A stretch of 64,000 nt of DNA from Pocillopora damicornis. Lineage: Eukaryota. The notes below the pieces were generated by a model. It saw nothing but the letters and a program-made list of their open reading frames with translations. It was not told where the DNA came from and ran no database searches. The stretch spans positions 868,001 through 932,000 of the forward strand of contig NW_020847248.1 of NCBI RefSeq assembly GCF_003704095.1, in the 5' to 3' direction. Position numbers and translations under genes: made by a program. Shown piece after piece: positions 23,252 to 50,892 of this stretch. Every line of letters starts with the position of its first letter. Position 1 is the first letter of the stretch.

Positions 23252-26200
23252 ATGATCACGCAGAAGAATTTATTTGCCTCATCTCTTCGAGGAATTCTTC
23301 TGTTCCTGACTTGGCAAACTATCAATTATAAAGGTAATTATTTTTTGTTTCTGTCAGAAGTATATTGAATAGAACTGAACCAATTATTTTCGCTGAGGTA
23401 GACAAGAAGGTGAAAATATTCTTTCATAACGGGATCATTGTATGACCAAACTTTAACATTGTCTCAATTCCGTCTCATCGATCATTCAGCGCATAATTAN
23501 NNNNNNNNNNNNNNNNNNNNNNNNNNNNNNNNNNNNNNNNNNNNNNNNNNNNNNNNNNNNNNNNNNNNNNNNNNNNNNNNNNNNNNNNNNNNNNNNNNNA
23601 CGCATTCAATGTAATATCAACGATTATCAATGAGAAGTCACCGAGTATGCATTCCACCGAGACTGAAATAGGAAACAGCAAGAGGATTTAAGGAAACCTA
23701 GTGAGACAGCTCTAATATAAAAATGAAGTAAATAGATTTCCTGTTGAGAATGAAGCTATTCCATGATGTCACGCAAATATTCAACTCTTGGCCTTATCTC
23801 ATTAGCGACCACTAGTCATTTCAGAGCACTTTTCCATACCAAACCTATCATTTTAAATTACACAGAGGCCGGCAGAATCTCTGGTAAGCGATCAATCTTT
23901 AGCGATAAAGGTCTTGACTGTTGGGTAGTTTCTTCTGACTTCTTTTCTCATTTTTTTCCTTACTGGTAGGCGTGACATCGACCTCATGCCAATCCCAACC
24001 ATGTCTGTACTTCAGCAACAGTCGCGCTCTCCAAGCGTTAGATATCAGCTCCTCCAACTTGTACTCAGTCGCACCAAACCTCAACTCTGTTGATGCAGTC
24101 GACGTGCACGTGAAACTGAATTTGGTGTACTGGAGCGAGCGTCAGCCAAACGTCATAAAGAGGCTGAACATTACTAGTGGAAAAGTGGAGAACGTGTCAA
24201 CAGACAGCAACATAGGTCAGATCAAAGGTATTGCGGTGGAGTGGGAGAGTGGACTAATTTATTGGACTGATAACACCAATCGTCGGATCGAAGTAGCGCA
24301 GTTGGACGGGAAAAACAGACGGGTCTTGTTTAGTAAAGATATACGAAATCCTCTTGGAATAGTTGTGGACCCAAGAAAAGGGTATGTACCAGCTTTTTAT
24401 ATGATAGAGGGCTCTCCATAGATAAATTGCTACGGATATTATCAAAAGGAGGAAATGCACGGAAGTGGAACTGCCAGCAAGCAAACTGCTTCCTAAAGCA
24501 CAGAGAAACGTAAACGACCAAGATGCGGTCGATTTTAATTTCTCATCTGATTGGTTGAGATGGCGGTGCGAGTTTTCCGGCTGATTTTATTACAGAGTTC
24601 GGTTAAGCAAAACCAGTGCCATCCTGGAGTACTTTTGAAACTCAATTGAAAATTGGTTTATGATAAATTCTGCAGCAAGTTTTTTGATAGGTTCTTTGCA
24701 ATGCCCTATTTAAAAACAGACGTACAGATATCGTCAGTTGGATTTTATGTTGTTGCAGAGCGTCTAGCTTTGATGTAGAAATTCGTGTGATTCACTTGCG
24801 GTACATAGATCGATTTTGAGTTTTGACTTCATACCCTGACAACGAGTTTTCGAACGCCTGGCCAGCTCAACATAGGTTCTCCAGCCCCATCCCCAAAAGG
24901 TGAAGTAATGTTTGACTGTGACACTTCCTCTCGTAGCTCCTGAAGCGTATTCTTGATTCTGCCGGGTTCAAACCTTTAGTCCGCAAGAGTTTTTTCACTA
25001 GTTCTTCCACGCCCACTTACATTTCACGTTTTTCTTCATCACTGGTATTGTAGGTACATGTTTTGGTCAAACGGAGGATTTCAAAGTAAAATCGAGAGAG
25101 CTTCTTTGGCAGGTGAAAATCGGAAAACCTTGGTCAACCTTGGGAGCTCGTATTCTAACGTTCCGGTCGGGATGACCATCGATTTCCAAGCAAACCGTAT
25201 ATATTTTATTAGTCGAGGACTTTTTACCAAAAGGCTGGAAAGCATTGACTTTGATGGAAACACCCGACAACAGTTTACATCCCTCTCATCCATTAGTTAT
25301 CCTTATGATATTGTATTGCTGAGCGGAGTGTTTTACGTATCTGACGCGAGAGGCAACAAAATCTTCAAGATCGAGAAGTCCACAAAGAGATCTCTGGGAA
25401 ACTACGCAGGTCTTGGTTTCAGTAATCTTCGAGGGCTTGAGATGTTCTCCTCCTTGCGACAACCTAAAGGTACGATCAATATTCAAGTAATTTGTCTCAA
25501 CAATTGTGTTAAAAATTTGAACTCAAGTTTGACGTGGGCAAGTTGGACACGCAGTGGCACGTAAGACTGGACTGGGACATTTTGTCTCAACTCTTACAGT
25601 GCCTTGCTCTATCTGAAAGGTACAAAGCGATGCCAGCAATCTGACAAAATGACGAATCACTTAATATCATAGTTCCTTAATGCTACAATAATCGCATAGG
25701 CTCTGATGCTCTGAGCGATCAGATTCGAGAGTAGACGTTTTTTTGGCAGGCGCTGACCTAGAAGGAGTATGGCTGGTGGAGAAATTTGGGGGAGTATTAG
25801 CGTTCAGTGTTAGTTAACACGAAGATGATTTTATCATAAAGCAGGCGGACTCATGGCCATGTTAAACTTGCAATTTCCTATATCAAAGCTGGTTATCATC
25901 ACGTGTTCTCGACCGTTGGACAAAAAATAATATTCATCCTCATGGTGTTATATTTGTTACGGGTATTTTTATGAGTATCGTTTAAAACCTTGTTGTCTCT
26001 GGTTCTTTCGTAGGTAGCTCTGCTTGCCACAACAATAGTGGATGCAGCCACCTTTGTCTGCTATCGCCAGCAGGGAGCCAATGCGCATGTCCAATAGGAA
26101 GCATTTTAAAGCCTGACGGAAAGACGCGTGATGATTCAGGTAAACAATGTAAACCGCCAAGTTGTTGTTTTAGAACAACTGTGCAAGTGTTGAAAAGAAA

Positions 26201-29200
26201 AGTGCACTGCCAAGTGGGGTGGGCAGGAGGGGGGAAGGGGATAGAAGGCTATTTCTGCATTTAGTTACATTAAAAGATCTTTTTTGGGCAGACTATATTA
26301 TTTCTAATATTAGTTTTCGAGAACTTGTGAATTTTTGAATGATTACTTATCGTTTATCGTTTCGCAAAAAAATAATGGTTTCGATGTATTTCACACACTT
26401 TTTAGCATCCAAACTTCTCCTATTGGCTGATAAGACGCAACGAGGACTCTATCAAATACCATTGGGAGCATCAATTTCAAAGAAGGCCATGGCAATCCCA
26501 TTAAACAATGTCAGGAGACCTGTGGGGGTTGAATTTGACCCCCTTAATGGCTTCGTCTACTGGTCTGACAGCTTCAGAGACGTAATTTCCCGAGTCCATT
26601 TGAATGGCAGCACACAGGAGGAAGTGGTGGATCGTTTGAGAACACCTAATGGCATTGCAATAGACTTCATTGCGAGAAATCTGTATTGGACAGACAAAGG
26701 GTCAAACAGAATCGAAGTGTCTCAGTTGGACGGCTCCTTCAGAAAGACTCTTGTGTATAATGATCTTTGGGATCCACTTGACATTGTGCTCGACGTGGAG
26801 AAGGGGTAAGGGTAAATATTACCTCTCTTAAATCAGTAAAACTGTGGCTCGTAGAGTTCTGAAATCACTGAAAGAAGACATAGTATTTGATCATTATAAG
26901 TAAAAAATCGTCCATTCTTGTAAAACTACGAGATGCACCTTAGGTTATATGGCTTATTCTATCAAGTAAGATCTTGAACTACATCTTGCCTGTAGATATC
27001 AGTGCATGACCTATGGAGAGAGAAGCTCTTCACTTACCAAGAAAGTCCTTGGCAAACATTTACAGACGTTTGCTTCTGTATTAGTGCGATTTGAGAACTT
27101 TAACCCATGAGATAAAATCTACAGCTTGCAGCACAGCTTTATTATTGTGGGTAATGAACATCTTTCGATTTATTCATTACTAAGAGCTGTCATGATTTCT
27201 TCATCACATGAGAGACAGCTCAATTAAGATGAAAATAAAATTGTCGCCTTTTCCAAGTGAAAGCTTTTGTATAGAAATACCTTTGTTGTAGAGGAAGACT
27301 TGGTTTGTTCTAGGCACCTTACGGCTTGCTTTCATCGATGTCCTCAGCACTAGAGAACATGGATAAGTTAACAAGATCAAGAGTAAGGATTGTGTTTTAA
27401 AACTGTAATTGTCGCTTTTGCAGATACATGTATTGGAGTCAGGAAGGGAGTTCATCCATCGATACCAAAATAGAACGAGCCGATATGGATGGAATGAACA
27501 GAGTTGTCGTCAAAAGCTGGAATTATTACTCTCATACCACTAGGTCTCCAAATGGCCTCGCCCTAGATAAAGAGCAAAATCGTCTGTATTATTTCGACGA
27601 TTACACAGACCGTATCTACTACGTTTCACTGAGTACTGGCGCCGAAAGCACTCTATTGATCAGACAGGGCAGTCCCAAGGGAACAGTCGTACATGGAAGT
27701 TACATTTATTGGACAGAGACACAAGGTCAAAGTGGTGCGGTCTACAGGGCTGATAAGAAATCAGGAGAAAATGTCGAGAGCGTGGTCAGCGGCCTTGTTG
27801 GGCCGGAAGATATCTGCGTTTACGACGCAAACGACTCGTTGCTCCAGACAGGTACGTTTCATGCTGGGTTATGAGAAAGCAATAGTGCTTGTATTGAAAA
27901 ATCTCATGGATACATTTTTAACTTCCCCTATCTTCCGGTCTTGCGTCTGTAGTCTCCTCTTTTACTTAGCTTATCTTATCAATCCTCTTCTCTAACTGTC
28001 TTCAAGCACTCTCTCACATGAATCTCCTTTTTATCTCCCATTACAATGGCCTTCTACCTGAAAACATTGAATTTAAGTTTCCCTTGACATGATTTTGTTT
28101 TTGTAAAATTGCAGTGAAATCAAATTGTAGCAGGAACAATGGAGGTTGCAGCCATCTTTGTTTGCTCACTCCAGGCGGGCATCGATGTGCATGTCCAAAT
28201 GAAATGAATTTGAAGCCCGACGGGAAAACTTGTAAGTCAGAAACAAGAAGAATCGTTGATAGCTACACGAGATGAAAGATATATTTAAAGTGAGATATAA
28301 GAGCGCCTCAGCCAAATATATTCTAGGTTTGCAACGCTCAACATAAAACTCGAGACATCCTGTCAGAAATACGCTCATCTTCACCGATTCCGTATCGCGT
28401 CTAATGCAAGAAAATTTGAATTGCATATAACTCGGCATCACAGGTGTAAAATTTTCACCAAGTATGGTCTCTGTAAATGGTGAAATAAAAACCCTATCTT
28501 AGCGATAATGTTTGGGCTAGATAACTGATATTCATCGTATACCATTGCAGGTCATTTTAGCGAGTTTTTACTTTTCGCCGACTCAACAAAGAAGAAGATA
28601 TACCTGATTAATATCGACAACCAGCATTCACAAGTGGTACCCCTGGAACTAGGTAACCTTCAAGAGCCCGAAGCACTGGACTTTGATCCGCAGACTCACT
28701 CCATTTATTGGTCTGACCTGCAGTTCCGTCAAATAGTACGCGCTAATCCTGACGGAAAATCAAAGACGATCATTGTTAACAGCGGTCTCCAACGACCCAG
28801 AGGCATTGCAGTTGACTATGCTGGAAGAAATTTGTATTGGACAGACTATGACGGCGAAAGGATTGAAGTCGCAAAACTTGATGGATCACAGAGGAAGGTT
28901 TTAATCTCTCGAAATATTGAGAAGCCTGTGGACATTGTGTTAGACTTGAATAACGGGTAAGAAAGATAATACTTCCCAGGATTGGCTTCGTTGTCTTTTC
29001 TACTTAAGGCACTTTGGATCAGATTGACTATAGCTACGTTTTGTTTCGAGGTCATTTTGTCGACGATGGCAGCAACCAGCCATGCAGTTGCAAGGATACT
29101 TTTAGACTTTAGAGGCTGATGAACATTAATTAAAGCTTGCCTATGCAAGCTTAGTTTCTCACTCCTTAATGCTTTGCACAAATATTTTTATGAAACATGT

Positions 29201-32200
29201 AACGACAAGGTATTCTTTTTTTCATTTTTTCCAGTCTTATGTACTGGTCGTCGTGGAGTACACAGCCAAAAATAGAGCAAGCATCCATGGACGGAAGTAA
29301 TAGGAGTACGGTTGTTTTGTTTCAAAGAAGCTGGTGGCATCGTTCCGCAAACCCTAATGGATTAGCTTTGGATCCCGAAACTAGCAGGCTCTTTTGGGTT
29401 GACACGACTAAATCTCTGATACAGTACACGGACCTTGGACTTGGCGATGGTTCCATAACCACTCTCCCTGTCCCAAGTTTCTACTTATCAAATGCTTATG
29501 GGTTGACTTTGAAAGACAATACACTGTATTGGAGCACCTCTGGATCCATTTATGCGGCAGACAAGAAGACGGGTGGTAACGTGCGTCGTTTAGTAAGGAA
29601 TATAGCGAGTCCTCGAGATGTTCACGCATATCATAACTATTCAGCAATTCCAGGTAAGAGGAAGAATTAGTTTTAGTTCATTCGAATTTCCTGTCTCAAC
29701 TTAATATGCCGAGCCAACTTAGATGACTATCAACTTAGTATTTTCAACCATTAAAACGAACGCACCATATGCCAGTAAATCTCGAAAACTATGATTATTT
29801 TGATGTTAAGAGTAATGCAATTATCATTGTTCCGCCTTCGTTTTATAGTCAGCTGATTTCTCCACTTGAGCTTCTCATTGCATCAATTCATGAACTGTTT
29901 TAGTAAGTCAGATATTGAGAAGTTTCGTTTTTTGCATCGGCCACCTTATCGACATGTATTTCCTTTATTACACCTGAGCGAATCCTTTAAAATTACCTCT
30001 CGCTTGATTCTAGCCGATCTTTCTTCCTTGAAAGCTTAATCTTTGCTCTGTTTTCTTTCAGATGACCACCCTTGCTCTCTGTTCAATGGATGGTGCACAC
30101 ATCTTTGTCTGTTAAAACCAGGAGGGTATCAGTGTGCGTGTCCAACTGACACCGGAGATATTCCCTGCAAGACTACACCTGTTATTCCACCTTCGTCCAC
30201 ACTGTCGCTCTCACCTTCGTGGTCGCCTTCGCCATCCTCGTCGCCATTGTCAATATCATCCCCACCATCAACAACGTCTTTCACATCTACGCCATCTTCC
30301 ATGTTAGCTGTTTCAACATCGTCAAAGTCACCACTGCAATCAACTCCTCCATCTCCATCACCACTATCGATGCAAACATCGTCGTTATCGCCGTCACTGT
30401 CAGTTTTCAATTTCCCAATTTCATCATCCTCTCTGCCGCTGTCATCATCATCGATGTCGTCGCTGTCCGTCTCTTCCCCGCAACAAGAACCTGCTTCATC
30501 ATATACATTATTGAAGCGGCCCTCATCTTCCATCGTACCATTATCACATTCTTCCGTGATATCAACTTTACCACCCCTAGTTGATGCGTGTATTTCAAGA
30601 CCTTGTAAAAATGGCGGTACATGTCTCGAGGGAAACGAGGGTAGCTATACCTGTCGGTGTGCCTTAGGATATACCTGGCCTCATTGTGAGCTCAATATAG
30701 GTGAGTGCCAGCTACTGAGAGATTTTAGTCAAAGTAAAGGTCTCCAAGTTTTCTTCAGAGTAAGATAACGATTCTATATTTTATAGGTCACTGGTAGAAT
30801 TATACTTAAGGATTTTATAAAGACGAGTCCAAAGTGACATTAAAGATATGCAAAATTATTGGAAATTTTTTGATATACAGCCCCCATACGGCTCGTTACG
30901 TTGTGATTTGCACTGAAATGTAAAATTAGCGAGCTGTTCCTTGAAATAAACCCAACTCCCTTCCTGCTCATCCAAAGAAAATATCTCAGCCTACCTAAGT
31001 ACCAGGTAGAAGGAGAGGACTGAAACGAGGAAATTGGTCAAAACTTCCAGATTTAGTGCCTAGGTAAAACTATGTCATCTATGAGAGTCGTGAAACCCAG
31101 GAATCTATGTAATAATTCCTTTCTTTTCAAATGTTTCTGTTTGTAGGTGACAATGTCGTGAGTATAGCATTCAAAATGACCACGGCTCAAGTAAGTGTTT
31201 TAGAAATCTTCTTTTCCTCACCATGACACCTTTGAAATCGCGAAAATTGATATCATGTCTGATATGACAATGCCTTTGCACCATTAATTTGAACCTAATA
31301 ACCCAATACACAGAGGGTCACGCAAATTGAGACTCGTGGAAAAAAACTAGCTGGGGTGGCGGATTTTATTCACATAAACAAACCAACAGACACAAAGAAA
31401 GAGTAGCAGAAATGCAAAAACGAAAAAAAACTATCTTTGCATAGAGTGGGGAATAATATCTAAGCTGTCAACAAATTTTCATTTTGATTTCATTTTCTTT
31501 ATTCAAGTGGAACCAAGACACTCTCAGGAAGAGCATTGCAAAAGCATTCACCGAGTACTGCACAAAAGACCAACGCCCTTGTAAACTTCGTAAGAGGTAT
31601 TGGAATTCATCAAAGCTACGTTTATGTAACTTTATAGACCGCATCTCTTACTCTTTAAGAGCACATCATCTTCACATTTATGGGAGTGAAATAGCATAGG
31701 TTATCAATAAGGTAAACTAAACGTTATAGTGATTTAGAATGTTTACTCTCTATAGAACGATATTGTGCAATTTGATGCTCGATGCTACTTCATTGAAACA
31801 TGGCGATGTAAGATTTTTTTTTTTTACATCAGTTGTTTTAATTCCCTAAATTGTTAGGCTGAACGATATCAGAACCCGATCAACACCGCGCATCGACGAT
31901 ATCAATGTTTTCAGAACCGAGGACGTGTTAGTGCTTGGAAGGCATTTTGAAGGACACCAACGCCTATTCAGCATCGTTCTGGCAGTGTTGGTACCTGAAG
32001 AAAAGCAGCGCCAGTCATCTCTAAGACAAACCATCTCAGCTGCTACTCTCTGCAAAATGATAGTAAAAACGTCAGAACGTATTTCAGAGTATATGGATAA
32101 CGTTGAAATAGTCTTAATCAATGGTGAAAAGGAGCCAACTTGTGCGTCTAACCCAGTGGACGATGATGAACACGAAGGCAAAAACGGACAAATCAGTGGG

Positions 32201-33756
32201 AATAAAGAAAGAAAAGTGGATAGTCAGCATGAAGAAGGGTTATCTTCTGGTGCTACAGCGGGAATTATTTTGAGTATCATTTTAGTTATCATTCTCGTGG
32301 GTGTTGGCTTCGTCTTAGTGAGGTGAGTGCTTACCTTTCGTGAGTTAGTCGTTGTTTGACTATGAAAAGAAGCCGCGAACAAGTAATTCAGAGCTTATGA
32401 TGCAATTTTTTCCTTGGCCGGGTTTAGGATAATGCCCTCCTTATTAAGAATGAAAAAATCTAAATTAATCCTATTTTCTATTTAACATATAAATGGGTCT
32501 ACAAATGAAAGGATGTGATAGTCATGATCCCTTTGTTTACTTAGTTTTTCAGTAATGATTAGGCGAAATGAGAATTATAAAAATAGTTCATTCATTTTGA
32601 TACAAACGTTTGAGCAGCTTTTTAAGGATTTTTAAAAATACAAGATCCTTGTGCACTACATTAGACCATGACAATAGAATGCTTTATAATCGTTCGATTG
32701 ACTAAGATATCTTTCATGAGACAAAACGGGACAACGTTAGTTATAGGCTCTATAAAATCATCAGTGAGATCGGATGTTTCGACTCTGAGGAACTAATTTC
32801 GTTTCAAGTGTCATTAAAAGAAAAACTGCAATAATACAGGATTTTTCTGATATTCTCTTTCATTTTTTTTATTTTTCCAAAGGTCGCGGGAAAAGGGGTT
32901 GAAAATTTTTAGAACCCCTTTCACACTTTCATTTAACAATCCTGGCTTCGAGCCTCATCATTCCAATCTTCACGACGACAATTCAGGAGGAGTTCCCTTC
33001 AGTATTCCAGAGACTTACGATCCTTACGAGGTAGTAAAACGTCCATCTTCAATAAGCGAAAGACAGTTTCAGAACCCAGAAACATCTGTTTACGAGCAAG
33101 AGTGCGAGAATCCTTTATATCTCGCAAAGAGTAAAGATGGTGATTTCCAAAGCTCAGCTGGCAATCCAATTTATGAGTCCATTAACGGGCACGGGAGTGG
33201 GAATCCAAAGGGACCAAGACCTGAATCTGATTATGGAAGCTTGGCCAAACGAAAATTTCATCCCGATGGCGACCGAAATGAAGAACCACTGTATGCTAAG
33301 CCAAATAAAATAAAACCTCGTTCGCCCTCTGGGTTTAATTCCCCTGAAGCGCAAAATGGCAACACTTATGCCCAGCTTGGCTTGGGGAGCGTTGTGCAAC
33401 CTAGCCAAGATAGTGGTTTTGAGCAGCCTGGGTACGCGTCACTCGCTCCCTTCTCTCGAAATATCCACGGAGGCAATGGCAAAGGTGTTAGTTCTCGCAA
33501 GGGTATTTCCTCGCAGGATAATTTTTGGCCTCAAAACACTGTGCACCCCCAAAATCCCGAAAGCCAGAATGAAAAACCAGTGAGTCCAAGGAAAGCTTGT
33601 TTCCTTGGTTACCCAGCGAGCCGCCTGGCAGATGAGAATTGTAGTAAAGAGCAGTTAAGTAGTAAACAGAAAGTCCGAAGTACAACTTTAAAGGACAAGG
33701 AAACGCCTGTCTTACATCTTCCTACTGAGCCTGGTCCTGAAGAGACGATTATCTGA
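23252..33756 (+). CDS. LRP-like single-pass receptor A: signal peptide, 3x(YWTD propeller+EGF), Ser/Pro/Thr stalk, EGF, SEA-like domain, TM, about 290-aa Tyr-rich tail. Exons 23252-23333, 23970-24381, 25054-25469, 26014-26139, 26406-26805, 27424-27851, 28115-28231, 28551-28956, 29235-29653, 30062-30700, 31147-31190, 31508-31596, 31858-32322, 32883-33756
   Basis: Multiple YWTD/YWSD repeats ([14 protein letters not shown]), CSHLCLL..CACP EGF repeats, [22 protein letters not shown], tail NPLY/NPIY; GT-AG with consistent phase. A 100-N gap lies in intron 1. Confidence 0.9.
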
Positions 33757-37083: not shown

Positions 37084-40000
37084 ATGGTAGTCACCAAGGA
37101 AAGGGGAAACATGCAGCAACAGACTTTTTATAAGCAGTTTCATCCTTTGGTACTTTTGACGTTGGCCGTACTTGTTTCGAGAAATATGGGAGGTGAGTTA
37201 TTCCCAGTTGAGTTAAAATTTGTTAGACTTAATGTCGATGAGCCCACTGAATTGCAAATGTTTTTTTCCCAATTAAAGTTTCACGTTTCAACACCCGGGT
37301 TCTCGGATACGCGGCCGTTTAATTAACGAATTTTGTGTTGTCCTTGTGGCAAGATTTATTCCTCGTGACAAGAGGATAGCAGTAAGAGATAAGAAACACT
37401 AAATTACCACATTGGCTCTTCAGGATCAAAGAAGTTCAAAATCTGCAAGAAAGCGACAATAGTTTTATAAACATCGATTTCCTAAAGGCAGCAAATAGAC
37501 TTTCGAAAGTTCATCGAGTCAAAAAGAAATATTCGTACAGTGGATAGAAAAATTGGTAATTTAGAGTTAACAACTGAGTTGAAAACGTAAATTGACCGTG
37601 AAGAGTTTAAAGGCTGACGTTTCGAGCGTTAGCTCTTCGGCAGAGTGATTGAAAAATAGGTCGCTTTAAACTGATGAGCCTACGACTGAGGCAAGCAACA
37701 TGCACAGTCTGAAAAATTTTCATCTTCACGCCGAGATCCTTTTATTTGATGCTTGTCAAGCTTACTTTTATCCTGAGAAAACAAGGTCAGTCTTATGATA
37801 ACTTGAAATCTCGAAACCGTCTCTGTGTAAGCGATTCAGCCGAATGTTATTCAACTTATTCTACCGAATTACGAAGAAAAGAATTACGTTTAGATTTAGT
37901 TGTAAACATTGTAAACAAGAAACTTTTTAAATAGAGATGTCAAGAAATATGCTGAATCACCCCATATTACGTAGGGATCCATGTTGTGTATCGCGGAGCC
38001 GACATTGTTTACACGTAAAGCCGACGTCATAAGTTGAGTGGACGATTTTTGCAAACAATCCTCTAACAAAACATTACATAACTAGGGAAAAGTCTAATTG
38101 GTATCTAGCATTGAATGACGCTAAATTTTTATAGCCTGTCATTAGCCAAATATCGTCATTTCTTTATTTATAATTGATTTGAAAAATTCTCCTTTAACTG
38201 AGGAGTTCTCAAATAATATTGAACTGAGAAACTTGGTCGATTTTTTTCATGTCAATTGATGTCATATCATATAAGCAATCCAGGGTTTCAAACGTTTCAA
38301 ATAGGAATAACCCTGCATACAGCCGTCGGTGCAATGGAAAATTAGAATAGAATCGAACATTTATACCAAATAGTGCAATATATCGTTGTAGTCATCTTGA
38401 ATGAGGAACATGTTATGCAGTAATTTATTTTGTTTGTCATGTTAACAATTCAGATATGTAAATGAATATCGGGAAAACAAAGATTTAAAACATCATTATC
38501 GATCAAGGATAATAGTTGGCATGGGAATAACTTTCTCAAAGAAAGAAATGTAGATGCAAATGGGGACGAACGGTGCCAGGCATCTAATTTCTCGAGCTGT
38601 GACTGATGCACTGCCTTGCGTAAAAGTTATTTTTGTTTATCTTGCATTTGAGTCACAATTTTCTTAACTCTAGTTTCTATTAAGAATTACGTCAAACGTT
38701 CTTGTGCTCCTGAGGAGCTTTTCAAATCTTTATGTCCACGAGGAAATAAAACTTCAAGTTTGGTTTGTTTGAATCAGTCCGTGATAACAAAGTCTAAATA
38801 TAATAGAAGTTGAACCCACTATTTTATGTAACAATAAGGACTGTGGCTCCTGTTGGGAAGAAAAACATGTTAAAACAAGTTCCGTCACATCATAGGACAT
38901 AATAGGTCCTCGTGCTGCTATGACTATGTAGCCTGGGGCATGATTCCTCGTCAGGTTTATGTAAATTTAGGGCATACTAGCAGCACATTCTAAAGTCTTT
39001 GTTTAGTATACCTCACACACGTCTGAAATTTGTTTTAAAAATTCGTAGCACTAGCATATCACATTCGAATGGAACTTGTCTCGTATCAAGAAATGGTCCA
39101 TTGTCATTGGAGAACAACATTGCCTCTGTTATTTTAGATAAAATTTTTCCATATAGCCTGCACTTGACGAAAAATGTTTAAAAATCTTATGCTGGTAAGG
39201 GGTCAAGATATTACCAGGCCTTGAGAATTTATCGAAAAAAAGTTCCAACCATCCGAGGAGTACATTGCGTTTGTGAAAATGCCACTCTTCTTTTAAAAAA
39301 AGATTGACTGATTGACTTGATTGACACTAGTGTTTCTGCAACGCAGGTTCGCATGGCTGTCAGAGCAACCCAAGCCTCTACTTCATTGACGATCACAATA
39401 TCAAATGTGCCACTGTCAAATCTTTGCAACAACCAAACCCTTCCTTTCAAACGGTAGTCACTAAAATTGCTGAAGGAGCAGGGATTGACATTGATGTGCG
39501 AAACAGAATGATCTATTGGAGTGACACCACGGCGTGGACGATAAACCGAATGAACTTGACTTCAGGAGAAATAAAAGTCATTGTTAGGCATAATGTAGGA
39601 GAGGTTTACTCCCTGGCTGTTGAATGGGAAAGCGGCTTGATCTACTGGACGGATTATATCTACGAGAGAATAGAAGTAGCTAAACTTGATGGGAGCTCCA
39701 GGAAAACTCTTGTAACACAAAACGCGCGTTCGCCTGTTGGAATTTCAGTCGATCCAAGAAGTGGGTAGGTAATTATGGTCTCGGAGTCGTGCATTGCTTT
39801 TTCTATTCTATCTTTATCCTGAGCAAGTTTTATTGGGTAGTGCAGATGGAAAAATTTGACAAGTTTTTCCGACAAGTTCACCAGTATAAGACGTATTAGT
39901 CACGTTTTTGAATAAGGAGGCTGGTTGGGGCAAAGACATCTCTGTAAAGGCAAAAAGCCGCCGATCTCAGTGTTATGAAGAGTTTTGTAAAAGGAGAAGC

Positions 40001-43000
40001 ACTATGCTTACTGAGAACAAACTCGGTTAAAAAATCTGTTGAATTAAAGAAGAAAGAATTTTCACGAATTCGCCTTATAGAACAAGGCTGTCCTCAGGAC
40101 CTCGTCGAAGAGATCTAAGCCGAATTACAATTCTCATCACGCAACACGCAAACAAAACGAAAACATTTAGAAAGATTTTGCCGTTCGTTACGACTTTCAA
40201 CCCTGCTAACAAGAATCTTAAAAAGATTCTTATGAAACAATGGCATCTTATTTAAGGCAACAATTGTTGCTTATCGGAAGGACAGGTCTCTAAAAGATTC
40301 TCTTGTTATAGCGCAACTTCCTTCACTTTAATTACAAAACAGCATCGAGGAGTTATAATATTAATTCATAATATGTAGAGAGACTGCGTAATATATCGTA
40401 AGTATTTTTTTTTGCAGATACATGGTTTGGGTGGAGCACGATTACGCAACGAGGAAGATAATGCGTGCAGATTTGACAGGCGAAAATCCTGTAGAGTTGC
40501 AAAAACTTTTTTATGGCTTGCCTCTATATGTCATTATTAATCACAGCGATAGTCGAGTGTACTGGACCGATATTCATCGTTCATTTACTTTTATTGGGTC
40601 AATTGGAATTAACGGAAATCATTTCAGACGTGAGAAATATCTTCATCCAACTTATTTCCCATTTGATTTGGCAATCTCTCAAAATATCTTTTATTGGGCT
40701 GACCAGAATTTGCATGGAGTCTCGTGGTTCAATCAGAGTTCGTCTTCCAGTGTGGTGAATCTTCAAAATCTATCTCCTCTTGATTTAATTGGAGTGGCAA
40801 TATCTGATTCATCAACTCAACCAATAGGTATTTGATAAACATCTTTGAGATGCATGATTTCATAAAGTGTCATGCGGCAGAAACGATTTGAAGTCAGAGT
40901 ATGAAGAGAGGGTTTAGTCACTATGTGCCTACCTTTTTTAGTTAGTACTGTTAAAATGTCTCTCGAAATCACCATCTGAAGTATATATACTTTTCAAAGC
41001 TTCTTGTAGAGACCAGTGGCATAGTTAAGTCCTAATCAAATTTCATCCACGACCCGCTTTCATTGGCAAGCCCTATTGTTAAAGAAAATTCTAAGTAGCA
41101 GTTAAATGACAAAACCTTTTTTTTCATGGGGGAAAGTTTCCCATTCGACAAAGAAAAATATCAAGGGAACACTCATCAGGGAAATTAATCTCTGTAAATG
41201 AGTCCTCTTTCAGTGAAAACGGCGCAAATTTATATTCTTCTCTATTTTCAGCGATCCAGGAAAATCCGTGCGTAGTCAATGATGGAAATTGCAGCAATTT
41301 GTGCCTGTTAACCCCAGGAAGGGCAAGAAAGTGCGCCTGCCCTGAAGGAATTAAATTAAGGAATGACAGCATCACTTGTGAAAACGGTAAGTGAGTACAA
41401 CCAAGAAATGACTTAGATGAGAATGCAAATGATCATTGATTAAGCTAGGACTAGAGTAACTATTACTGCTGCTGTTTACAGTACTCTACGAAATTATTAC
41501 AGTTTTAGGGTGTAGACCATAAATCCTACGCTCTAAACTTTTCAACAAATTCATGACGCCAAAAGCGCATAACCTAGGTTATATGCTTTTGATGCCGCTG
41601 AATTCATAAAAACTCCCTAAACAGTACTCTGTAGATAAAAAATGAAAGTTTGTGGCCTTATAAAGAAAATCACTTTTACGATATCATGTCACATTTCATG
41701 AAATACGTCCAGACGTTCACTCTGAAGTGAAGATTGCGCCTCTAAGTAAAAATGAATACTAACTCAGCCAATGTCTTGGAGTCTAAAACAGCGTATAATG
41801 AGAGACAAAGCAGTAGTGAAAAACTGAGAATGGCGACGATAGTTTTTAGGCGAAACGTGAATCATTTCATCATGGCTCTAATGCAAGAATATGTTTGGTT
41901 CTGTAGAAACTGCGGCTGCAACACTACCACCGCCCCTTCCAGGTATGTTCTCAATCCTTAGCATATTAAGCACTTTAAATTAAGGTCGTGAATACAATGG
42001 TCAAAATATCGCTAGCTTTGCACGAAGTTGCTATCACAGGTGCAGTCCAGGGAGCATTTTGTTATCAAAACAGTAAGCGATTCACATCATTACCGACTGC
42101 CATTAATGACTGTATATTCTATCAGTGCAAATCAGAATTGACGGAATTCATTGATGACAAGTGTTCTTCATCACACTTAAAGGAAAATGGTCTTTTTCGT
42201 TCAGTTAAGTTTTGATTAAAATATGGTGGAACGGACAGCTCTAAAAAGTTCCATATATACAGGAAGCCAACATAATTAAAAGTTGCTATGAACACTAGGA
42301 AGTTAAACACCACTACTTACAGACTTATGTTGCTTGAACCTCTAGCCATACAAGTTCGCCTCAGGCCCCGGAGCGCCTCCAAGGAAGGTAAAGGCCGTGT
42401 CGAGGTTTTCTATAACGAAGTTTGGGGAACAATTTGTGATGACTACTGGGGTCTCGACGAGGCGCACGTTATCTGTCGCATGTTGAACTATTCGGGAGCA
42501 CAATTTGCACCCCGGAATGCATTCTTTGGCCGTGGATCAATTTTTATGCCAATTCACTTAGACAATATTAAGTGTCGAGGCGACGAGTCGACAATTGCTG
42601 CGTGTCGCCATAATGGTTGGGGCCAAAATGACTGCTTACATTCAGAAGATGCCAGTGTGGTATGTTGGACCGACTCGGCTCCTCCTATTCAAGGTATGGA
42701 GCCTCTTGTAGTACAGCGTTCTCGCGATGAACAATTCCTCTTTATTGTTTGTTCGTCGTTTAAACGATAGTTGTTATATTTCTGATTTGTATTTGTAACA
42801 ATAGAATATTTTGATTCACTAGAATTGCAAGAGTGCACCAGGAGTCTCTAACTTCTGTGTTTAGAAATGGCTCAGTTCCTCTTTCATTCACTCCTTTCTT
42901 ATTGAAACTATGAGAGTTACCAACGCCAAGAGGTCTTAATTTCGTAATCCCTCTGTTAAAGTTGTACATTCTGCCTTCCAGTGTGGATAAGGATGCTCAT

Positions 43001-46000
43001 TGCTGAGCTCTGTTCCACAAGTACGATCAAAATGTTCAAGTTCAGCGATCGTATGATAAAAAGCCAAATATTTTATTCCACTTTGCAGAGCCAACTTTGG
43101 CCCCTGGACCCTATCCAGGTACTTGTCTCTTTTGAATTTTGAAGTTAGTTGATCACTGTATCTTGTTCCACGTATAACAATGTATGTAAAGTTACGCTGT
43201 GTACTATTGAATGGCCTCGTGCCGGCGCCTTCTAGTGAAGGTGATGAAGATGGTGGTAACAACATTGAAGATGGCGGCATTGACCACTTCATTCTGCAAT
43301 GATACCTTGAAGAAATGAGGAATCAAAAGCGGTCCTTCACTGCGCATAATTTGCTGAAATTAGACCATTGAGTATGATTTTCAAGACTGTATACTTTCGA
43401 GATTGATTATTTCGATCAGTTCCTTGCTAAATTCGATCAATCGCTCGAGAGCTAAGGAGAATTCACAATAGGTGATACAGACATGGATTGGTTAAAGCTA
43501 ACACTCTCAGTGTAACCCGAATCTTCCCGTAGGGAAGTCCAAAATATCTACTGCGATATAAATGTAGTATGATGAGTCTTTAGAAATGTATAATTTAATA
43601 GTTTTATGATTCCTTGTCTCACTTCAGAACTAAAAGTGCGATTACAAGGTGGAGACAATTATTATAAGGGTAGAGTTGAAATTTACCTGAATGGAACCTG
43701 GGGAACAGTATGTGACGACTCTTGGGGAATTGAAGAAGCCAACGTCATTTGCCGAATGCTGAACCACACAGAAGGAGCCGTCAGCACGCAGTGCTGTGGA
43801 TTCTATAATGGATATGGCGTTTCCGAAAAGATTTGGCTGGATGATGTTCACTGCGTTGGAGATGAAAATAGCATCGCGGAGTGTCGCCATGGCGGCTGGG
43901 GAAAACACAACTGCCGTCACTCAGAAGATATAGGGGTCGTTTGCAAGCATGCTCCATTATCAACACCAGGTATACCTCGTTTTTCTTTCTTTCTCTTTTT
44001 TTCAATTCCCCAGCCACCGTTGCCTGTCTCCCTTCCTTCCCATTTCAAATATTTCTTTAATTACACTTAAGTCCAATATCGGCTCTGTTATACCGAAATT
44101 ATCGGAAGGACAATTTTAAATCCTGAAATCGCTTGTTTATTTACCGTTTAGCTTCAACTCATGTAATCTGTGCCATGACATTCAGTTAAATTTCTAAAAT
44201 TAAATTAAGGATATTTCTTGTCGAGGAATAAGTGGTTGTGCTGTTGACTCTCCTCTCCGGGTAATAGGTGAACGCACAGATGCAAAGAAAATTGAATGGG
44301 ATAGAAAGAGAGGCAGGGATAACCATGCCCTTAGACGAGTAACACCACCTAGGCACACTTAGCCACTTTGATAACAGAGGCGCTTCTATTCTTTCCCCCT
44401 TCGTTTTTGTAATATAAGTCTACAGTGTTCATTATTGTTTTCTATCAAGATCAAATTGTGCGACTAGCAGACGGAGCTCGAGAGAGCGAGGGACGTGTGG
44501 AAATATTCCATAATGGAGAGTGGGGAACGGTTTGTGATGATCACTGGGATATCAACGATGGAGATGTTGTATGCAAAATGCTAAATTACTCGAGAGCACT
44601 GCGAACCCCCAAACAGGCTTTCTTCGGTCCAGGAAATGGTAAAATTTGGCTTGGCAATGTGAAATGTAGCGGGAATGAAACAAGTCTTTTGCAGTGTGGA
44701 AACCCGGGTCGGAATGTTGACATTTGTGACCACCACGAAGATGCATCTGTTATATGCGAAACTGAGGCACCACATTTAGGTAAATTAAAAACCCTTTGAG
44801 GGTCACATGGTATATGTTGTATAAACCTAATTTACTTAACTTTACAGTTCACCACCCTTTTACACTCTCAGAGTTTTGATTTATTTAACATTTAGCTCTA
44901 TAGCCTCAACTACTTGCTAGGAACTCGAGCAACGAACTTCGGATCGCAAAGAAATTGAACAAAAGGATTAATGAAAGAGTGTTAGTGCAGGTAATCCCAC
45001 GACACTGAGAGAATTTTTCTACCTTTAAACAAGGTTGTGCAACCAGGTCATTTTTTTTAAGGTCAATTTTAGAGGTTTTTTAACCAGGTCACTTTTCGAA
45101 GGTCAATTAGATAAAGTAGATTTCGTTCGGAATTAAGAAAATTTCGGAATGAAAAGTAGTCTTGAGAACAGATATGTTTGTAAAATACTACAAGCCCCCC
45201 AAAACCAGAAGATATTCGATGAAGAAGGTTAAAAGCGACTGTTTTTTTTTCTTCAGAATCCAAAAGTTTTATTCTAGCATGTGGACTCGGACGAGAACTT
45301 CTTTATCATGTCCCTCTTGATACGAATCTGCCTGAAAAAGGTATGCCCCTGGCAATAGAGACTAACACTCCACTGGCAGTAACCTTTAACATTGAAGACA
45401 ACTTGATGTACTGGACAGAACAATCTGGATCTATTCATCGTGCTTATTTGAATGGCAGCTTCAGGGAAGTCTTATTAACAGACCTCATCCGGCCCACGGC
45501 TATTGAAATAGACCACGTGGGTAATAACCTATACGTGGCAGATCAAAATGGTGTCACAGTATCGAAGCTTGATGGTTCATATCAGACTCTCCTGATCAAC
45601 ATGACATCTTGTCATGGAATTGCTTTAGACAGCGTAGCAGGGTAAGATTTCTTTTTCTTTTTTTTATAATCTTCATTGCTTGCACACATATGCATCATAA
45701 CATTTCCTGCACTCTGACTAAAAAAGTTTTCCATTTGAATTTATTTTCCACAGGTATATATATTTCACTGTGACTGGTATTAGTCCAAGAATATTACGCG
45801 CAGACATGGATGGTAAAAATCCGCTTGTTTTGGCCAATGTGTCCTCCATAAGAGGAACCATATTGGACATAGCATTGGACAAGGTCAACAATCGACTTTT
45901 TTACTCGGACGAAGGCAACAACATGGTGAAGTATATCAATTTAACCAGTGGAGTGCATCACGCTGTGCTGTACGGTAATCCTCGCAGACCAGTTGGTCTT

Positions 46001-49000
46001 GCCTTATTCAATGGAACCCTTTACTGGACCGGTGAAGGGACTGTGGAGTTGTTTAGTGGTGGCATCTATAAGGTTAAAGCTGACACTTTAAATGGGGGCA
46101 TCGTTCGTGAGGTGGTGGACCTTCTTTCGTATCCTAAAGGAATATATGCTCATGACGCCCGAATGAAGATACCAGCAGGTGGGATCTTTATTAAAAAAAG
46201 TCTCGCCATAATCATTTTTTGCAACAACAAAAAAACGGTTTTAACCTTATTTTCTTTTTTTGCTTTCGTCTCTTATTTTTGTTTTCGATCATTATCTGCT
46301 AAAGTGGGTTTCTTGGCATATGAGAGGAAAACTGATCGATAAAGAAGGAGAGAGAGCAGAGAGGACCAAGAAATAAGCTCACAAGTTACTCCAAAACCAG
46401 TCGTGCAGCATGAGAGAATTTGTGTCAGTTGTCTTCTGTAAACATTTTTTTAGAAAATGATTTCAAATGAATGGTATCAATCGTAGAAATCGGAATATAA
46501 TTAAAAAAGAGACTTACACTATCCTTTACGAACCCAGGTTTTACTAAATGCTTTCGACTGTGCGCAAATAAAGCATTTCGTTGTGACGCGAAATTTTGTG
46601 CACGGTACGCATGCAATGCTTGATTTTTTTTTATTTGATCGAGGTAAAAGTTGTAACAGCTCAGTGCATTAGCATTCGAGTCAAGGTAATACAAAATATT
46701 CTGCTTTTGAATTACTTTCTACTTTTTTTTTTGCCTTTAGTCGATGATAGTCATCCTTGCGCTAGAAACAATGGCAGTTGTTCCCACCTCTGTTTAATAA
46801 ACCCAACAGGCCACAGCTGCATCTGTGTCGGAGCAGGTTCATGCCAGACATCTGTCAGCTCATCAGCCTCTATTACAAGCGCCATGTCCTACTCATCAAC
46901 AACTCATGCTACTGCAACATCAACAGAAATTCATGCTTCAGCCTCAGTTTCTTTATCAATCTCATCTCCGATGTCCTCATCATCACCTTCCATGACCTAC
47001 CATATGGTGACTGAACACGCACACACAACAACAGTCAACTTTTCCCCTTCACCGGTGGCTCCGACGGCAACACGTGTAAGCCTTACACCTTCCCAAACCC
47101 CGTCTGATATCTGTGCATCGCAAAATCCTTGTGAGGATCGAGGTAGCTGCCAAGCTGATGTTATCGAAGGCTACAAATGCGTGTGCTTGGAATATTTTAT
47201 TGGCCAAGACTGTTCAATAGACATAAGTATGTTATTTAGTTTGGTGGTTAAATAGTTATAGTGTTTGTCTTCCTTTGTAACTGTCATAAGAGGGGGAAGT
47301 GATCACGTTGGAGTACAGGTTCGCATATAAAATATATAGGCTTGTTAGATACGAAACTATGCCTTCAAAGCGTAAAAACAACGACAACTAGTAAAATTAC
47401 ACTCTTACATGTTCTTCTTCATTGCCTTTTCATTCCAGTTAACATTTTTCTTCCTATTCTTACAACAGCTGATGAAGCAATTCAGAGTACATGGTGTGAT
47501 TAACAAACCAGAAAGCGTGGAACAGAGGGGGGAAGGGGGTTGGCGTGGGAAAGCAGATTTTGTTTGAAATTTGGCAAGTGTTTCATGAAAAGCTTAACCA
47601 CTGAGGTCCCTGGAAAAAGGAGTTCAATTCGTCTTTTTGATAAATGTTTACAAAGTTTGAATACAAAGTCGCGTATATCTAAAGCCCTGTCTACATGGTA
47701 ATTACCTGCAAGAATGCTCTTGTCTGTTATAGAGCGAGAAGAGGAGGTAAAACTTATCGCTTGATATTTTGATTTTCTCCACAGGTGAAGGAGTGGTGGT
47801 CCTTGTCATAAAAATTCAAGGAAATGAGGTAAGGGGGAGAGGTTACTGCCTAATATAGAGGAATCAGTCTCTAGGATTTTACAATAAGAACTAAAAATGC
47901 ACCCTCTCTCGACATTATTATTATCAGGGAATTAAGAGGAAAGAGGTTACCGCGGTATCTAATTTATTTCTAAAATTTGCTGATTACAATTGCATGTGCT
48001 CAAATTATCCAGACAACATAATAACCGATTAAAAACACCTTTCCTTTCGAAATCCTCAAAATGAAAAATTGTATTGCAAGAATAAGCTTACAGAGTAATA
48101 AATTTAAATTTTCATGAAATTTACTGTAAACGTTTTAACTCCATTCCACAGTTCAACAAAACCGACCTGAAGCAAGTCATCCTTCAAATCTTGAATCGCC
48201 TCTGTGAAGATCCCGAAAGCGAACAGTGTCCAATAACAACATCAGGGTAAGCAAATGCTGATAAAGGTAAACCTATTTCCCCCGAGCAGGCCTGTTCTTT
48301 GTTCTGGAATTTCTTGTAGAGTTAACAGTTCAATGTGAACAAGGCCAAACTCATCGACTTTTCAAACTGTGGGCTGTGCTCGTCCATATCCTTTGTTTAA
48401 CATTCACAAATGCCTCAAAGTTGGAAAACCACTAGTAAACACCACGAAATGATGAGGATATTTAGTATTATCAACTGAGTTGATAACGTAAACTAACCAT
48501 CATAAAGAGTTTCAAAGCTGATGTTTCAAGTGTTAACCTTTCGTTAGCCCTTCGTCATTCGCTCTGACGAGGAGCGAACGCCCGAAACGTCAGCTCTGAA
48601 ACTCTTTAGTGACCAATTTACCTCATAAACTCAGTCGATAATACTAAACTAGCCTGACTTTAAACATATGAAAATCATAAATGTGTGCTGCGGTTGAAGA
48701 AATGAATATAGAAGCGATCCTCGCAGTTATGAACACTATTGAACNNNNNNNNNNNNNNNNNNNNNNNNNNNNNNNNNNNNNNNNNNNNNNNNNNNNGCTA
48801 ACTAGCCAGCTGGGAGCTGGTCATTATGTTGGATCCAAATAAGACCTTAAAGTGGGGAATAATGACTGTAAATATATGAAAATCATATATGTGTACCGCG
48901 ATTGAAGAAACGAATATAGAGGCCATCCTCGTAGTTATGAACACTACTTAACTACCTATTTTAAGTAATAGTTGAAACATTAGAGCCTTATTTCAACTAC

Positions 49001-50892
49001 TAGTTAAGTAGTGTTCATAACTGCAAGGATCGCTTTTATGTTCGGTACTTAATTAGCCTGTTATACTCAGCCACCGACGCAGCATCACAGTTTCTCTAGA
49101 CACTTACCCCCTTTAACGACCAAACGATCGTTTCACAGATATGTCTGTTAAGCTTAATTTGAGAATCACAACAAAGATCTCCAGTAGCTGCGAAGCTCTA
49201 ATGGCAAATTGTAAGCTTTATTGAGGTGCCGTTTCCATCTTATAGAGGTGTTAAACTGTGGAGACCTTATAATGTTTTTATTTGCCAATTTCTTAAGCGG
49301 GGCAAGAAGAAAACGAGAAGTGCCAAAGGAAACTTTCAGTCACGCAGAGGTCATAGTAAAGGAACCGAAAAAAATCAATGGTAACCTTCAAGTAGAGCTA
49401 GCTGTCATCAAACGGATGTCCAATGGTTCAATATTTGTTATATCTGGCGCAAATCTTGCCAGGATAGTAAACGCTTCGGCGGCAGAAATCGGTCATAAAC
49501 TGGGAGGGACGTTATTAAGTGTCATGTCGAAATTCCCTGGACCAACAGCTCAGGCTACACAGTCTACCATGCCGGTTGATAATTCCACGACAATAACACA
49601 AAAACAACCCCAGGATAGCACGACAGTACCTGGAACAACGACCGGTCAGGTACCAGCTGGTCCGGGTTCTGCAGCTGCCAATAAGGGAGGAGGAGACAAC
49701 GGTGGAGTTATCGGCGGTGTGGTGGTAGCCTCCCTTGTTATCATCATCTTGGTTATCGCACTGGCGGTCTGGTATTTCAGGTAATAAACTTTGATTCATG
49801 ATTTCCTTAATTCATACTAGCAAAGATTAAAAAAACCAAAACCCTCCATGGTAAGCAACCAACGGAAGATAACAGCCAGTTTTTTTTTCTCTATTCATCT
49901 CAAATGAGGGAAAAAGAGAGCAGCACAGAATACAATAAAAAATACGAAAAAAGGGAACTAAAACCATATAAAACCTAACAATAATATAATAATATTTAAT
50001 ACTTATATTGCGCTTTTTCTATAAAAATACTGAAACATGTACATGTACATGTACTCAGCTGCTAGACATGTACGACTGAAATGGAGATCAAACACCAAAC
50101 AAAAGTGTGGATAATTGAGGTTGATTCTTAATGTATTGAGAGAATTTCCACTTTTGTTTCCTTGTAAACGGAAGAAAAAACATACCCTGAAGGCGATACA
50201 TTTGCAAAAACAAAAAAAAAACTATCGAAAGCGAGCGTTTGTCCTAATACAGCAGCAAAACTCGAGTAATCTTTAAACAAGAGGGTGTGTCGTGTGGTTG
50301 CTACTAATGAATCACTCTAAAGCGAAATCCTGAGGGAAAACAATGAATTCAACGCAATTGTTCAGCTCGTTGTAAACTAAGAATGAATAACGGAGGACGT
50401 AGCTAAAAACTATCACCAGAAGCCTATTAGTAAAAAAAGCTGAAAAAATTGAAATGTAACAAAAACCAGAATCAAGTAGCACAATTCGTTTCTTTGCAAT
50501 ATTTCCTAATCCATTTCATTGGTTTTTTTCTGTCAAAAGGGTAAAAATTCCAAGTCTCGCTTTTTCTTACAAAAGGAACAGTGATGGTCCTGAGCTACGA
50601 GTGGCTTCGTTTGAGAATCCCGGATATGAAACCGGAATAGGATTTGCGACACATGGTGATGATCTATACCAAGATCTACCTCCGCCGGTTGTTCTATCCC
50701 CGTACGAGGATCTCAATGACTATGGCGCTGTTAGCAATCCTATGTACTCTGAATTTGGCGCCGACCATGAAGCTTCGGTTAGGAGGTCTAATTTCGGTAC
50801 AAGTTTGTTCAGCAGCCATGGGAAAGAAACCGAGATTGGAGCGAATGATGCTAAGAAAAGCAATGGAAGTATGGCAGTAAATAAGATCTCTT
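37084..50892 (+). CDS. LRP-like/SRCR hybrid receptor B: signal peptide, YWTD propeller, EGF, 3x SRCR, YWTD propeller, EGF, Ser/Thr stalk, EGF, SEA-like domain with RRKR, TM, tail with NPxY and ITAM; stop codon hidden in the gap. Exons 37084-37192, 39347-39764, 40418-40827, 41252-41386, 42346-42693, 43628-43969, 44450-44779, 45257-45641, 45754-46178, 46741-47226, 47785-47828, 48152-48246, 49298-49780, 50540->50892
   Basis: IYWTD repeats; three GRVE..WGT[IV]CDD..W...C..L...I[WH]L[DG]..C.G.E..C....C.H.ED..V.C SRCR domains; TM GGVVVASLVIIILVIALAVWYF; exon phases consistent and matching receptor A. Confidence 0.9.
39978..40330 (+). mobile_element. Penelope-like retroelement ORF remnant (region C-terminal to RT), frameshifted and with stops
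   Basis: Reads FVKGEALCLLRTNS...KILPFVTTFNPANKNLKKILMKQWHLI...IVAYRKDRSLKDSLV, resembling the PLE post-RT segment. Confidence 0.7.
48461..48648. mobile_element. Inverted pair of Penelope-like terminal repeats (palindrome) containing minimal hammerhead motifs
   Basis: tttagtattatcaactgagtt ... aactcagtcgataatactaaa arms; + strand gct-CTGACGA-ggagcgaacgccc-GAAA-cg-TC-agc at 48561-48594. Confidence 0.75.
48665..49045. repeat. Tandem repeat with a unit of about 210 bp spanning an N-gap, ending in an inverted partial unit
   Basis: atatgaaaatcata..gtgt..gcg.ttgaagaaa.gaatataga...atcctcg.agttatgaacacta occurs twice; its reverse complement tagtgttcataactgc.aggatcgc is at about 49008-49035. Confidence 0.75.

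What the first reader, a model, noticed from the sequence alone, without database searches (positions are those of the whole stretch)
42346..44779. Three SRCR exons swapped into the slot of the middle propeller: visible exon shuffling
Seen: each SRCR sits on its own phase 1-1 exon, between EGF1 and the last propeller, exactly where paralog A has propeller2+EGF2 (also bounded by phase-1 introns). The domains have the 6-Cys group-A pattern (SRCR2 adds a vicinal CC) but are single-exon. The symmetric exons also allow in-frame skipping, giving isoforms with 0-3 SRCRs.
Basis: partly seen in the sequence, partly recalled or inferred. Interest (0 to 1): 0.7.

Follow-up and report, generated by a model that had tools for sequence, protein, structure and literature searches.

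The report
Coral LRP-like receptor with inserted SRCRs
This is a spliced coral gene for an LDL-receptor-like surface protein carrying three scavenger (SRCR) domains, which were likely inserted as one block rather than swapped for a propeller, and which are predicted to catch cargo for uptake into the cell.

Summary
The three SRCR exons are real, phase 1-1, and spliced to the propeller exons in coral RNA from 7 runs. The 'swap' reading is not favoured. A neighbouring gene C, 51-87 kb past the window, repeats three times the module propeller-EGF-SRCR×3-propeller-EGF-propeller-EGF, so the trio coexists with all three propellers. Gene B's last propeller groups with C's post-SRCR (middle) propeller (100/99). 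Best reading: the trio was inserted as a block after EGF1, and B later lost EGF2 plus the third propeller. Which of paralog A's propellers matches is unresolved (AU p 0.41/0.43). Single-exon six-cysteine SRCRs are ordinary in this genome and in sea urchin. No skipping isoform was seen; no donor gene was resolved. The protein has a furin-type site, two NPxY motifs, no LDL-A repeat, and SRCRs keeping the calcium-site residues, so it likely works as an endocytic scavenger receptor. The scan noted part of gene C before (e1-9054350). Verdict: a real, apparently undescribed variant of LRP-like receptors made by ordinary exon shuffling.

The parts
37111..37192 (+). Gene B coding exon 1, predicted signal peptide
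   Evidence: joint to 39347 in 4 of 4 runs
39347..40827 (+). Propeller 1 (x type), two exons 39347-39764 and 40418-40827, phases 1-2 and 2-1
41252..41386 (+). EGF1, phase 1-1
41907..41942 (+). Pro-rich linker micro-exon, 36 nt, phase 1-1
   Evidence: spliced in 7 of 7 runs
42346..42693 (+). SRCR1, single exon, phase 1-1, six Cys, cation sites 2 and 3 kept
43089..43118 (+). Pro-rich linker micro-exon, 30 nt, phase 1-1
   Evidence: spliced in 7 of 7 runs
43628..43969 (+). SRCR2, single exon, phase 1-1, six Cys plus vicinal CC, cation sites 2 and 3 kept
44450..44779 (+). SRCR3, single exon, phase 1-1, six Cys, site 2 kept, site 3 degenerate
45257..46178 (+). Post-SRCR propeller (y type), exons 45257-45641 and 45754-46178; counterpart of the middle propeller of gene C modules
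46741..47226 (+). Terminal-type EGF, Ser/Thr-rich stretch, second EGF
47785..49780 (+). Membrane-proximal stalk with RRKR site and transmembrane helix; exons 47785-47828, 48152-48246, 49298-49780 (acceptor corrected by RNA)
50540..50892 (+). Cytoplasmic tail with two NPxY motifs; end hidden by an assembly gap
23252..33756 (+). Paralog A, SRCR-less: signal, P1, E1, P2, E2, P3, E3, Ser/Thr, EGF, stalk, TM, tail

Best explanation
Gene B is a spliced coral gene for a single-pass receptor (propeller, EGF, three SRCRs, propeller, EGF, stalk, membrane anchor, two NPxY motifs) whose SRCR trio was likely inserted as one block of phase 1-1 exons after EGF1, with EGF2 and the third propeller likely lost later, and which is predicted to work as an endocytic scavenger receptor. 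History (inferred): a three-propeller ancestor like paralog A (P1-E1-P2-E2-P3-E3) took up the trio in the intron behind E1, giving the module seen three times in gene C; the B lineage then dropped the symmetrical block E2+P3, which mimics a swap when only A and B are compared. Mechanism (inferred, about 50%): the SRCRs bind anionic ligands through calcium, in the place that LDL-A clusters take in LRP1-type receptors; NPxY motifs drive uptake; acid pH and low calcium in endosomes, perhaps helped by the following propeller, release the cargo. The RRKR site is likely cut by furin. Shown: exon structure, splicing, domain order, homology of B's last propeller to C's middle one. Not shown: ligand, uptake, direction of gain, donor.
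For: Gene C (G000:C3883 ~1019166-983007, minus) has three modules x-E1-S-S-S-y-E2-z-E3. B's last propeller joins C2_y and C3_y at 100/99 and scores 233 bits on a profile of C's y propellers against 101 on C's z. A's E2 and C2/C3's E2 share an intron that splits the last Cys codon; E1 exons do not. B's last EGF has the short terminal-type spacing of A_E3 and C_E3. Profiles lean y=A_P2 (211 vs 182 bits) and z=A_P3 (188 vs 173). S2 and S3 group by position across B, C2, C3 (100/99, 97/92; S1 93/80). SRCR-less relatives: A, the C3984 paralogs and an anemone protein P0165. Splicing. Full-length relatives P0121, P0122 with B's order. No LDL-A hit in P0121. Cation residues (positions from PMC7043408 passages).
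Against: Trees do not place A_P2 or A_P3: y+A_P2 p-AU 0.41, y+A_P3 0.43, z+A_P3 0.46, and the free trees lean weakly to z+A_P2 (82/82; 44/76), the opposite of my reading. B's own last EGF scores slightly higher on the E2 profile than on the E3 profile (37.8 vs 33.8 bits; P0122's scores 31.1 vs 46.8). C module 1 domains are long-branched and do not group firmly with modules 2-3. Gain versus loss in A is argued from outgroups, not from a rooted tree. Gene C was not checked with RNA; 3 of 68 exon ends in my model were non-canonical placeholders. No functional data.
Confidence: 0.62

Rival explanations
1. True swap: the trio replaced propeller2+EGF2 in an A-like gene, B keeps that state, and gene C later regained an EGF+propeller behind y.
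For: A and B line up that way by order; y+A_P3 is not rejected (p-AU 0.43); z leans weakly to A_P2 in free trees.
Against: Needs an extra regain step; C's E2 sits after y with the same split-Cys intron that A's E2 has after P2; B's last propeller is closer to A_P2 than to A_P3 (score 300 vs 238; profile 211 vs 182).
Confidence: 0.15
2. The trio is ancestral in the A/B/C cluster and paralog A lost it; there was no gain at this node.
For: Symmetrical exons are lost as easily as gained; first propellers of A, B, C and the C3984 genes form an unresolved fork.
Against: C3984 paralogs and the anemone relative P0165 also lack SRCRs, so several losses would be needed; P0165 is a possibly incomplete gene model.
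Confidence: 0.13
3. Same history, other job: the protein is an adhesion or signalling co-receptor (LRP4/5/6-like), the propellers bind the ligand and the SRCRs are spacers or matrix-binding modules.
For: Closest solved propellers are those of LRP2, LRP4 and LRP6; a mucin-like stretch and stalk suit a surface tether; a neighbour in the cluster was read as a death-domain receptor (note e1-8603309, unchecked beyond an ORF).
Against: Two NPxY motifs are kept in B, P0121 and P0122, which LRP5/6 lack (PMC8469001 passages); SRCRs are more conserved than propellers between B and P0122 (68-80% vs 63-64%) and keep cation site 2.
Confidence: 0.3
4. The SRCR exons belong to a separate gene or are an assembly artefact.
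For: The assembly has gaps nearby (50893-50993).
Against: Joints into S1 and from S3 to the propeller in 7 of 7 runs; full-length relatives P0121, P0122 and an intron-less locus L046.
Confidence: 0.01

Closest known systems
LDL-receptor family, core members (LRP1, LRP1B, LRP2) and LRP4/5/6
   Same: YWTD-type propeller-EGF units (Pfam PF00058, PF14670; best PDB matches LRP2, LRP4, LRP6), one membrane helix, O-sugar-like stretch, furin-type site, two NPxY motifs.
   Different: No LDL-A repeat found; an SRCR trio stands before a propeller instead; the stalk domain has no Pfam match.
SRCR scavenger receptors (CD163, DMBT1/SALSA, MARCO, SCARA5)
   Same: Six-Cys SRCR fold, acidic cation-site residues, tandem array on a membrane protein.
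   Different: Embedded between propellers; no CUB, ZP or collagen; not group B.
Cnidarian SRCR proteins of Neubauer et al. 2016 (PMC5119243)
   Same: Cnidarian SRCRs in shuffled combinations; the SRCR-Ig-trypsin class described there has a first SRCR with a vicinal CC like S2.
   Different: The results section read (section 12) lists no SRCR plus propeller type; 'propeller' occurs 0 times; Figure 2 and File S1 were not seen and its legend mentions an LDL domain.
Mollusc multi-SRCR proteins with a trailing propeller (P0001, P0074, P0089, P0115; database models)
   Same: SRCR and YWTD propeller in one chain.
   Different: 10-17 SRCRs first, then one propeller; the SRCRs are not nested within a propeller-EGF chain; likely a separate origin (not tested).

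Membership tests
SRCR group A domain | Six cysteines in the group-A pattern | tested here: met
   S2 has two extra adjacent Cys outside the core six
SRCR group A domain | Encoded by two exons (rule as given in PMC3100851 passages) | tested here: not met
   single exons; same in 20 of 20 other SRCRs fetched and reported for sea urchin SRCRs (PMC10855680 passages), so the rule is not general
SRCR superfamily | Cation-binding sites 2 and 3 of SALSA SRCR8 | tested here: met
   site 2 in 3 of 3, site 3 in 2 of 3 domains of B, mapped by spacing from cysteines
SRCR superfamily | Calcium-dependent ligand binding | not testable with these tools
   needs protein
LDL-receptor family, core | YWTD propeller plus EGF units | tested here: met
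   repeats are divergent (3 of 4 half-propeller exons of B fall below the Pfam cut-off)
LDL-receptor family, core | Cluster of LDL-A repeats | tested here: not met
   no PF00057 match in P0121 or in the 10 B exons scanned
LDL-receptor family, core | One membrane helix and at least one NPxY | tested here: met
   hydrophobic stretch at the end of exon 49298-49780; NPxY at residues 1376 and 1416
LDL-receptor family, core | Endocytosis with pH-dependent release | not testable with these tools
   needs cells
Exon shuffling of class 1-1 modules | Domain on a symmetrical 1-1 exon, inserted at a phase-1 intron | tested here: met
   A has a phase-1 intron between E1 and P2
Exon shuffling of class 1-1 modules | Identifiable donor gene | tested here: inconclusive
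   deep SRCR forks unresolved; CC clade neither found nor rejected, p-AU 0.26

The most novel reading that the evidence does not exclude
Corals rebuilt an LRP1/megalin-like uptake receptor from other parts: SRCR trios took over the ligand-catching role of LDL-A clusters inside propeller-EGF chains, in a short form (gene B) and a giant form (gene C, nine propellers and nine SRCRs, about 4,200 residues if one gene), making a family of calcium-dependent receptors that take up microbes, symbionts or their surface molecules.
Probability: 0.22. Interest if true: 0.68.

Novelty: new variant of a known kind. Interest (0 to 1): 0.38.

Why it matters
Scavenger receptors are candidates for microbe and symbiont recognition in cnidarians (PMC5119243, abstract and passages), but specific uptake receptors are few. 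This family joins a known ligand-catching domain to LDL-receptor-type uptake signals, is expressed, and is kept across corals, so it gives a concrete gene to test. It also shows that a two-gene comparison can mistake insertion plus loss for a domain swap. The shuffling process itself is textbook.

Tried and rejected
Skipping isoforms: none among the 8 joints listed for 4 runs; one search hid 13 of 28 joints; assembled contigs drop rare forms, so this shows presence of the full form, not absence of others. Donor search: 20 SRCRs from other genes (picked by me from the best of 107 non-family matches), then the C281 and C4130 genes and L075; no supported sister. Protein search with SRCR1 was crowded out by DMBT1-like proteins. 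Searches with B's last propeller and with P0121 716-1370 found only P0121 and P0122 as close relatives, both unnamed, so no species tree and no date. The stalk profile gave 55 hits, nearly all short pieces; 3 of 10 looked up carried names. Scan look-ups by sequence and by words found nothing. AU tests could not choose between A_P2 and A_P3. No structure or complex was predicted. Literature searches showed no listing describing this architecture; one search returned 0 papers, one that I did not open; subscription papers are not covered.
Full report
Setting. The window is G000:C3883:868001-932000. The animal is taken to be a stony coral: several RNA runs holding the stretch are labelled coral metagenome and the named relatives of the stalk are cnidarian. 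Two tandem plus-strand genes matter. Gene A (23252-33756) reads signal, propeller 1, EGF1, propeller 2, EGF2, propeller 3, EGF3, Ser/Thr stretch, EGF, stalk, membrane helix, tail. Gene B (37111 to a gap at 50893) reads signal, propeller, EGF1, linker, SRCR1, linker, SRCR2, SRCR3, propeller, EGF, Ser/Thr stretch, EGF, stalk, membrane helix, tail: 16 coding exons, 1467 residues without a stop up to the gap.

The observation. The three SRCR exons are at 42346-42693, 43628-43969 and 44450-44779, with AG/GT ends and phase 1-1. Pfam SRCR matches at 101-114 bits. Each has six core cysteines; S2 adds a vicinal CC.

One transcript. RNA contigs of 7 runs from 6 studies were laid (X6 is only guessed to be RNA). 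Joints EGF1-linker-S1-linker-S2 and S3-propeller appear in 7 of 7. The S2-S3 joint is listed in 3 of 4 runs (not X4) and is not among the 15 rows shown, where 13 rows were hidden; there, record 9 of X2 has 891 letters before S3, which equals EGF1 through S2. RNA moved one acceptor to 49298. Two unnamed full-length proteins have B's order: P0121 (84-94% identity by domain) and P0122 (63-80%).

Skipping. All six exons from EGF1 to S3 are multiples of three, so skipping would keep frame. No skip joint stands among the 8 joints. Contigs drop rare variants, so this is open, not refuted. What did appear is a contig across the S2-S3 intron in all 4 runs (depth 296 against about 900 on flanking exons in X4; 66 against about 430 in X13; 5-7 against 110-140 in X16 and X6). 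Read through, it stops at 44068. Contig depth is a poor measure and this may be unspliced pre-mRNA.

Swap or insertion. Searching the genome with B's last propeller and SRCR1 pointed to C3883:983-1019 kb. There, on the minus strand, lies gene C: three modules of x-E1-S-S-S-y-E2-z-E3, then stalk, membrane helix and tail with NPxY. The trio thus coexists with three propellers. In a tree of 42 propellers B's last propeller, those of P0121 and P0122, and C2_y and C3_y form one group at 100/99; C2_z and C3_z lie elsewhere (same in 17 rows). A profile of C's y propellers alone scores B's at 233 bits, the z profile at 101. The EGFs mark position too: A_E2, C2_E2 and C3_E2 end inside the codon of their last cysteine, E1 exons do not (C1_E2 runs into a gap); B's last EGF has the short C5-C6 spacing of A_E3 and all C_E3. 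So C's module is A's chain plus the trio, and B is that module minus E2 and z, itself a symmetrical block. Against this: AU tests reject neither y+A_P2 (0.41) nor y+A_P3 (0.43) nor z+A_P3 (0.46), the free trees lean weakly to z+A_P2, and B's own last EGF scores a little higher on the E2 than the E3 profile. Profile scores lean my way (y: A_P2 211, A_P3 182; z: A_P3 188, A_P2 173). I put insertion plus loss at about 70%, a swap at 15%, loss from A at 13%.

Is gene C one gene? The gap between module 1's last EGF and module 2's first exon is 78 nt with GT-AG ends in frame, which leaves no room for a promoter and signal exon; the same border is seen in two metagenome loci, L043 and L045. No RNA was laid on it, and L046, an intron-less C-type locus from another record, starts with its own predicted signal peptide at an x propeller, so single-module genes or inner starts exist somewhere. 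About 4,200 residues is an estimate from exon lengths.

Spread. Of 77 metagenome loci found with an S2 alignment, 16 match B's S2 at 67-84%, all with the CC; 6 are B-type and 10 C-type by best match, and 5 of the 16 carry a propeller exon on the same contig. Both gene types therefore occur in other animals, not named here. SRCR-less relatives are A, three genes on C3984 and an anemone model, P0165 from Actinostola, with partial propellers, EGFs and the same stalk. This favours gain but does not date it.

The SRCRs. S1, S2 and S3 group by position across B, C2 and C3 (93/80, 100/99, 97/92), so the trio travelled as a block. No donor was resolved. One lead: the first SRCR of the SRCR-Ig-MAM-trypsin gene (C281; L075) has a vicinal CC in the same loop after a similar GAW motif; with the CC masked, a common clade is neither found nor rejected (p-AU 0.26). 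Single-exon six-Cys SRCRs are ordinary: 20 of 20 others have six cysteines in one frame, and 15 of 20 have predicted phase-1 sites at both ends (the query favours single-exon domains and sites were picked by motif). The two-exon rule is stated in PMC3100851 (passages); sea urchin SRCRs are reported on single exons (PMC10855680, passages).

How it likely works. Core LDL receptors pair LDL-A clusters (ligand binding) with EGF-propeller units (pH-dependent release) and NPxY tails, and LRP1 has a furin site (PMC8469001, passages). B has the propellers, an RRKR site, a membrane helix and two NPxY motifs, but no LDL-A match. SALSA SRCRs bind anionic ligands through a dual cation site (PMC7043408, passages); by spacing from the cysteines, site 2 is kept in all 18 family SRCRs examined and site 3 in 11 of 18, lost in S3 of B, P0121, P0122, C2 and C3. 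Most other SRCRs keep such residues too, so this shows competence, not specificity. I infer an endocytic scavenger receptor (about 50%); an adhesion or co-receptor role is the main rival (30%).

What is known. Cnidarian SRCR proteins with novel combinations are described in PMC5119243 (passages and section 12 read); no propeller type is named there, but its figure and File S1 were not seen. Seven literature searches listed nothing on this architecture; PMC6626399 (passages) names YWTD and SRCR only as separate labels. SRCR plus propeller also occurs in four mollusc models in a different order. The scan had noted gene C's last part and a neighbouring death-domain receptor; I had found gene C before that look-up and confirmed the architecture myself.

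Verdict. Real, expressed, conserved; exon shuffling by insertion, probably not a swap; mechanism plausible but untested. A new variant of LRP-like receptors, interest 0.38.

Noticed in passing
G000:C3883:983007-1019166 (minus; loci L006-L009): Gene C: threefold repeat of propeller-EGF-SRCR×3-propeller-EGF-propeller-EGF; modules 2 and 3 have an extra intron in the first propeller exon; about 4,200 residues if one gene.
   Followed up: partly
window 43970-44449: The S2-S3 intron is covered by a contig in 4 of 4 runs, at up to a third of exon depth in X4; read-through stops at 44068 and would give a form without membrane anchor, or decay.
   Followed up: partly
window 26014-26139: Paralog A's EGF1 has arginine where the sixth cysteine should be; allele, decay or assembly error.
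   Followed up: no
window 51351-51563 (minus): Inverted copy of part of gene B's last exon (195 of 211 bases identical) just past a gap; RNA joins 50892 to this side on the opposite strand, so B's true end is probably misassembled. A further copy lies at C3883:960186-960341.
   Followed up: partly
   Followed up: no
G000:C3984:129324-164122 (L012-L016): Three or more SRCR-less paralogs, two of them close inverted duplicates; their later propellers group together (95/86), apart from those of A, B and C.
   Followed up: partly
G000:C281:32110-54392 (L120-L122) and L075: SRCR-Ig-MAM-trypsin gene whose first SRCR has a vicinal CC like S2; a second, partial copy on the other strand.
   Followed up: partly
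L062:2-5473: Intron-less metagenome locus with 11 SRCRs, a propeller and an EGF, the mollusc-type order.
   Followed up: no
window 37555-37690 and 48460-48620: A short dispersed repeat in introns of gene B draws many RNA contigs.
   Followed up: no
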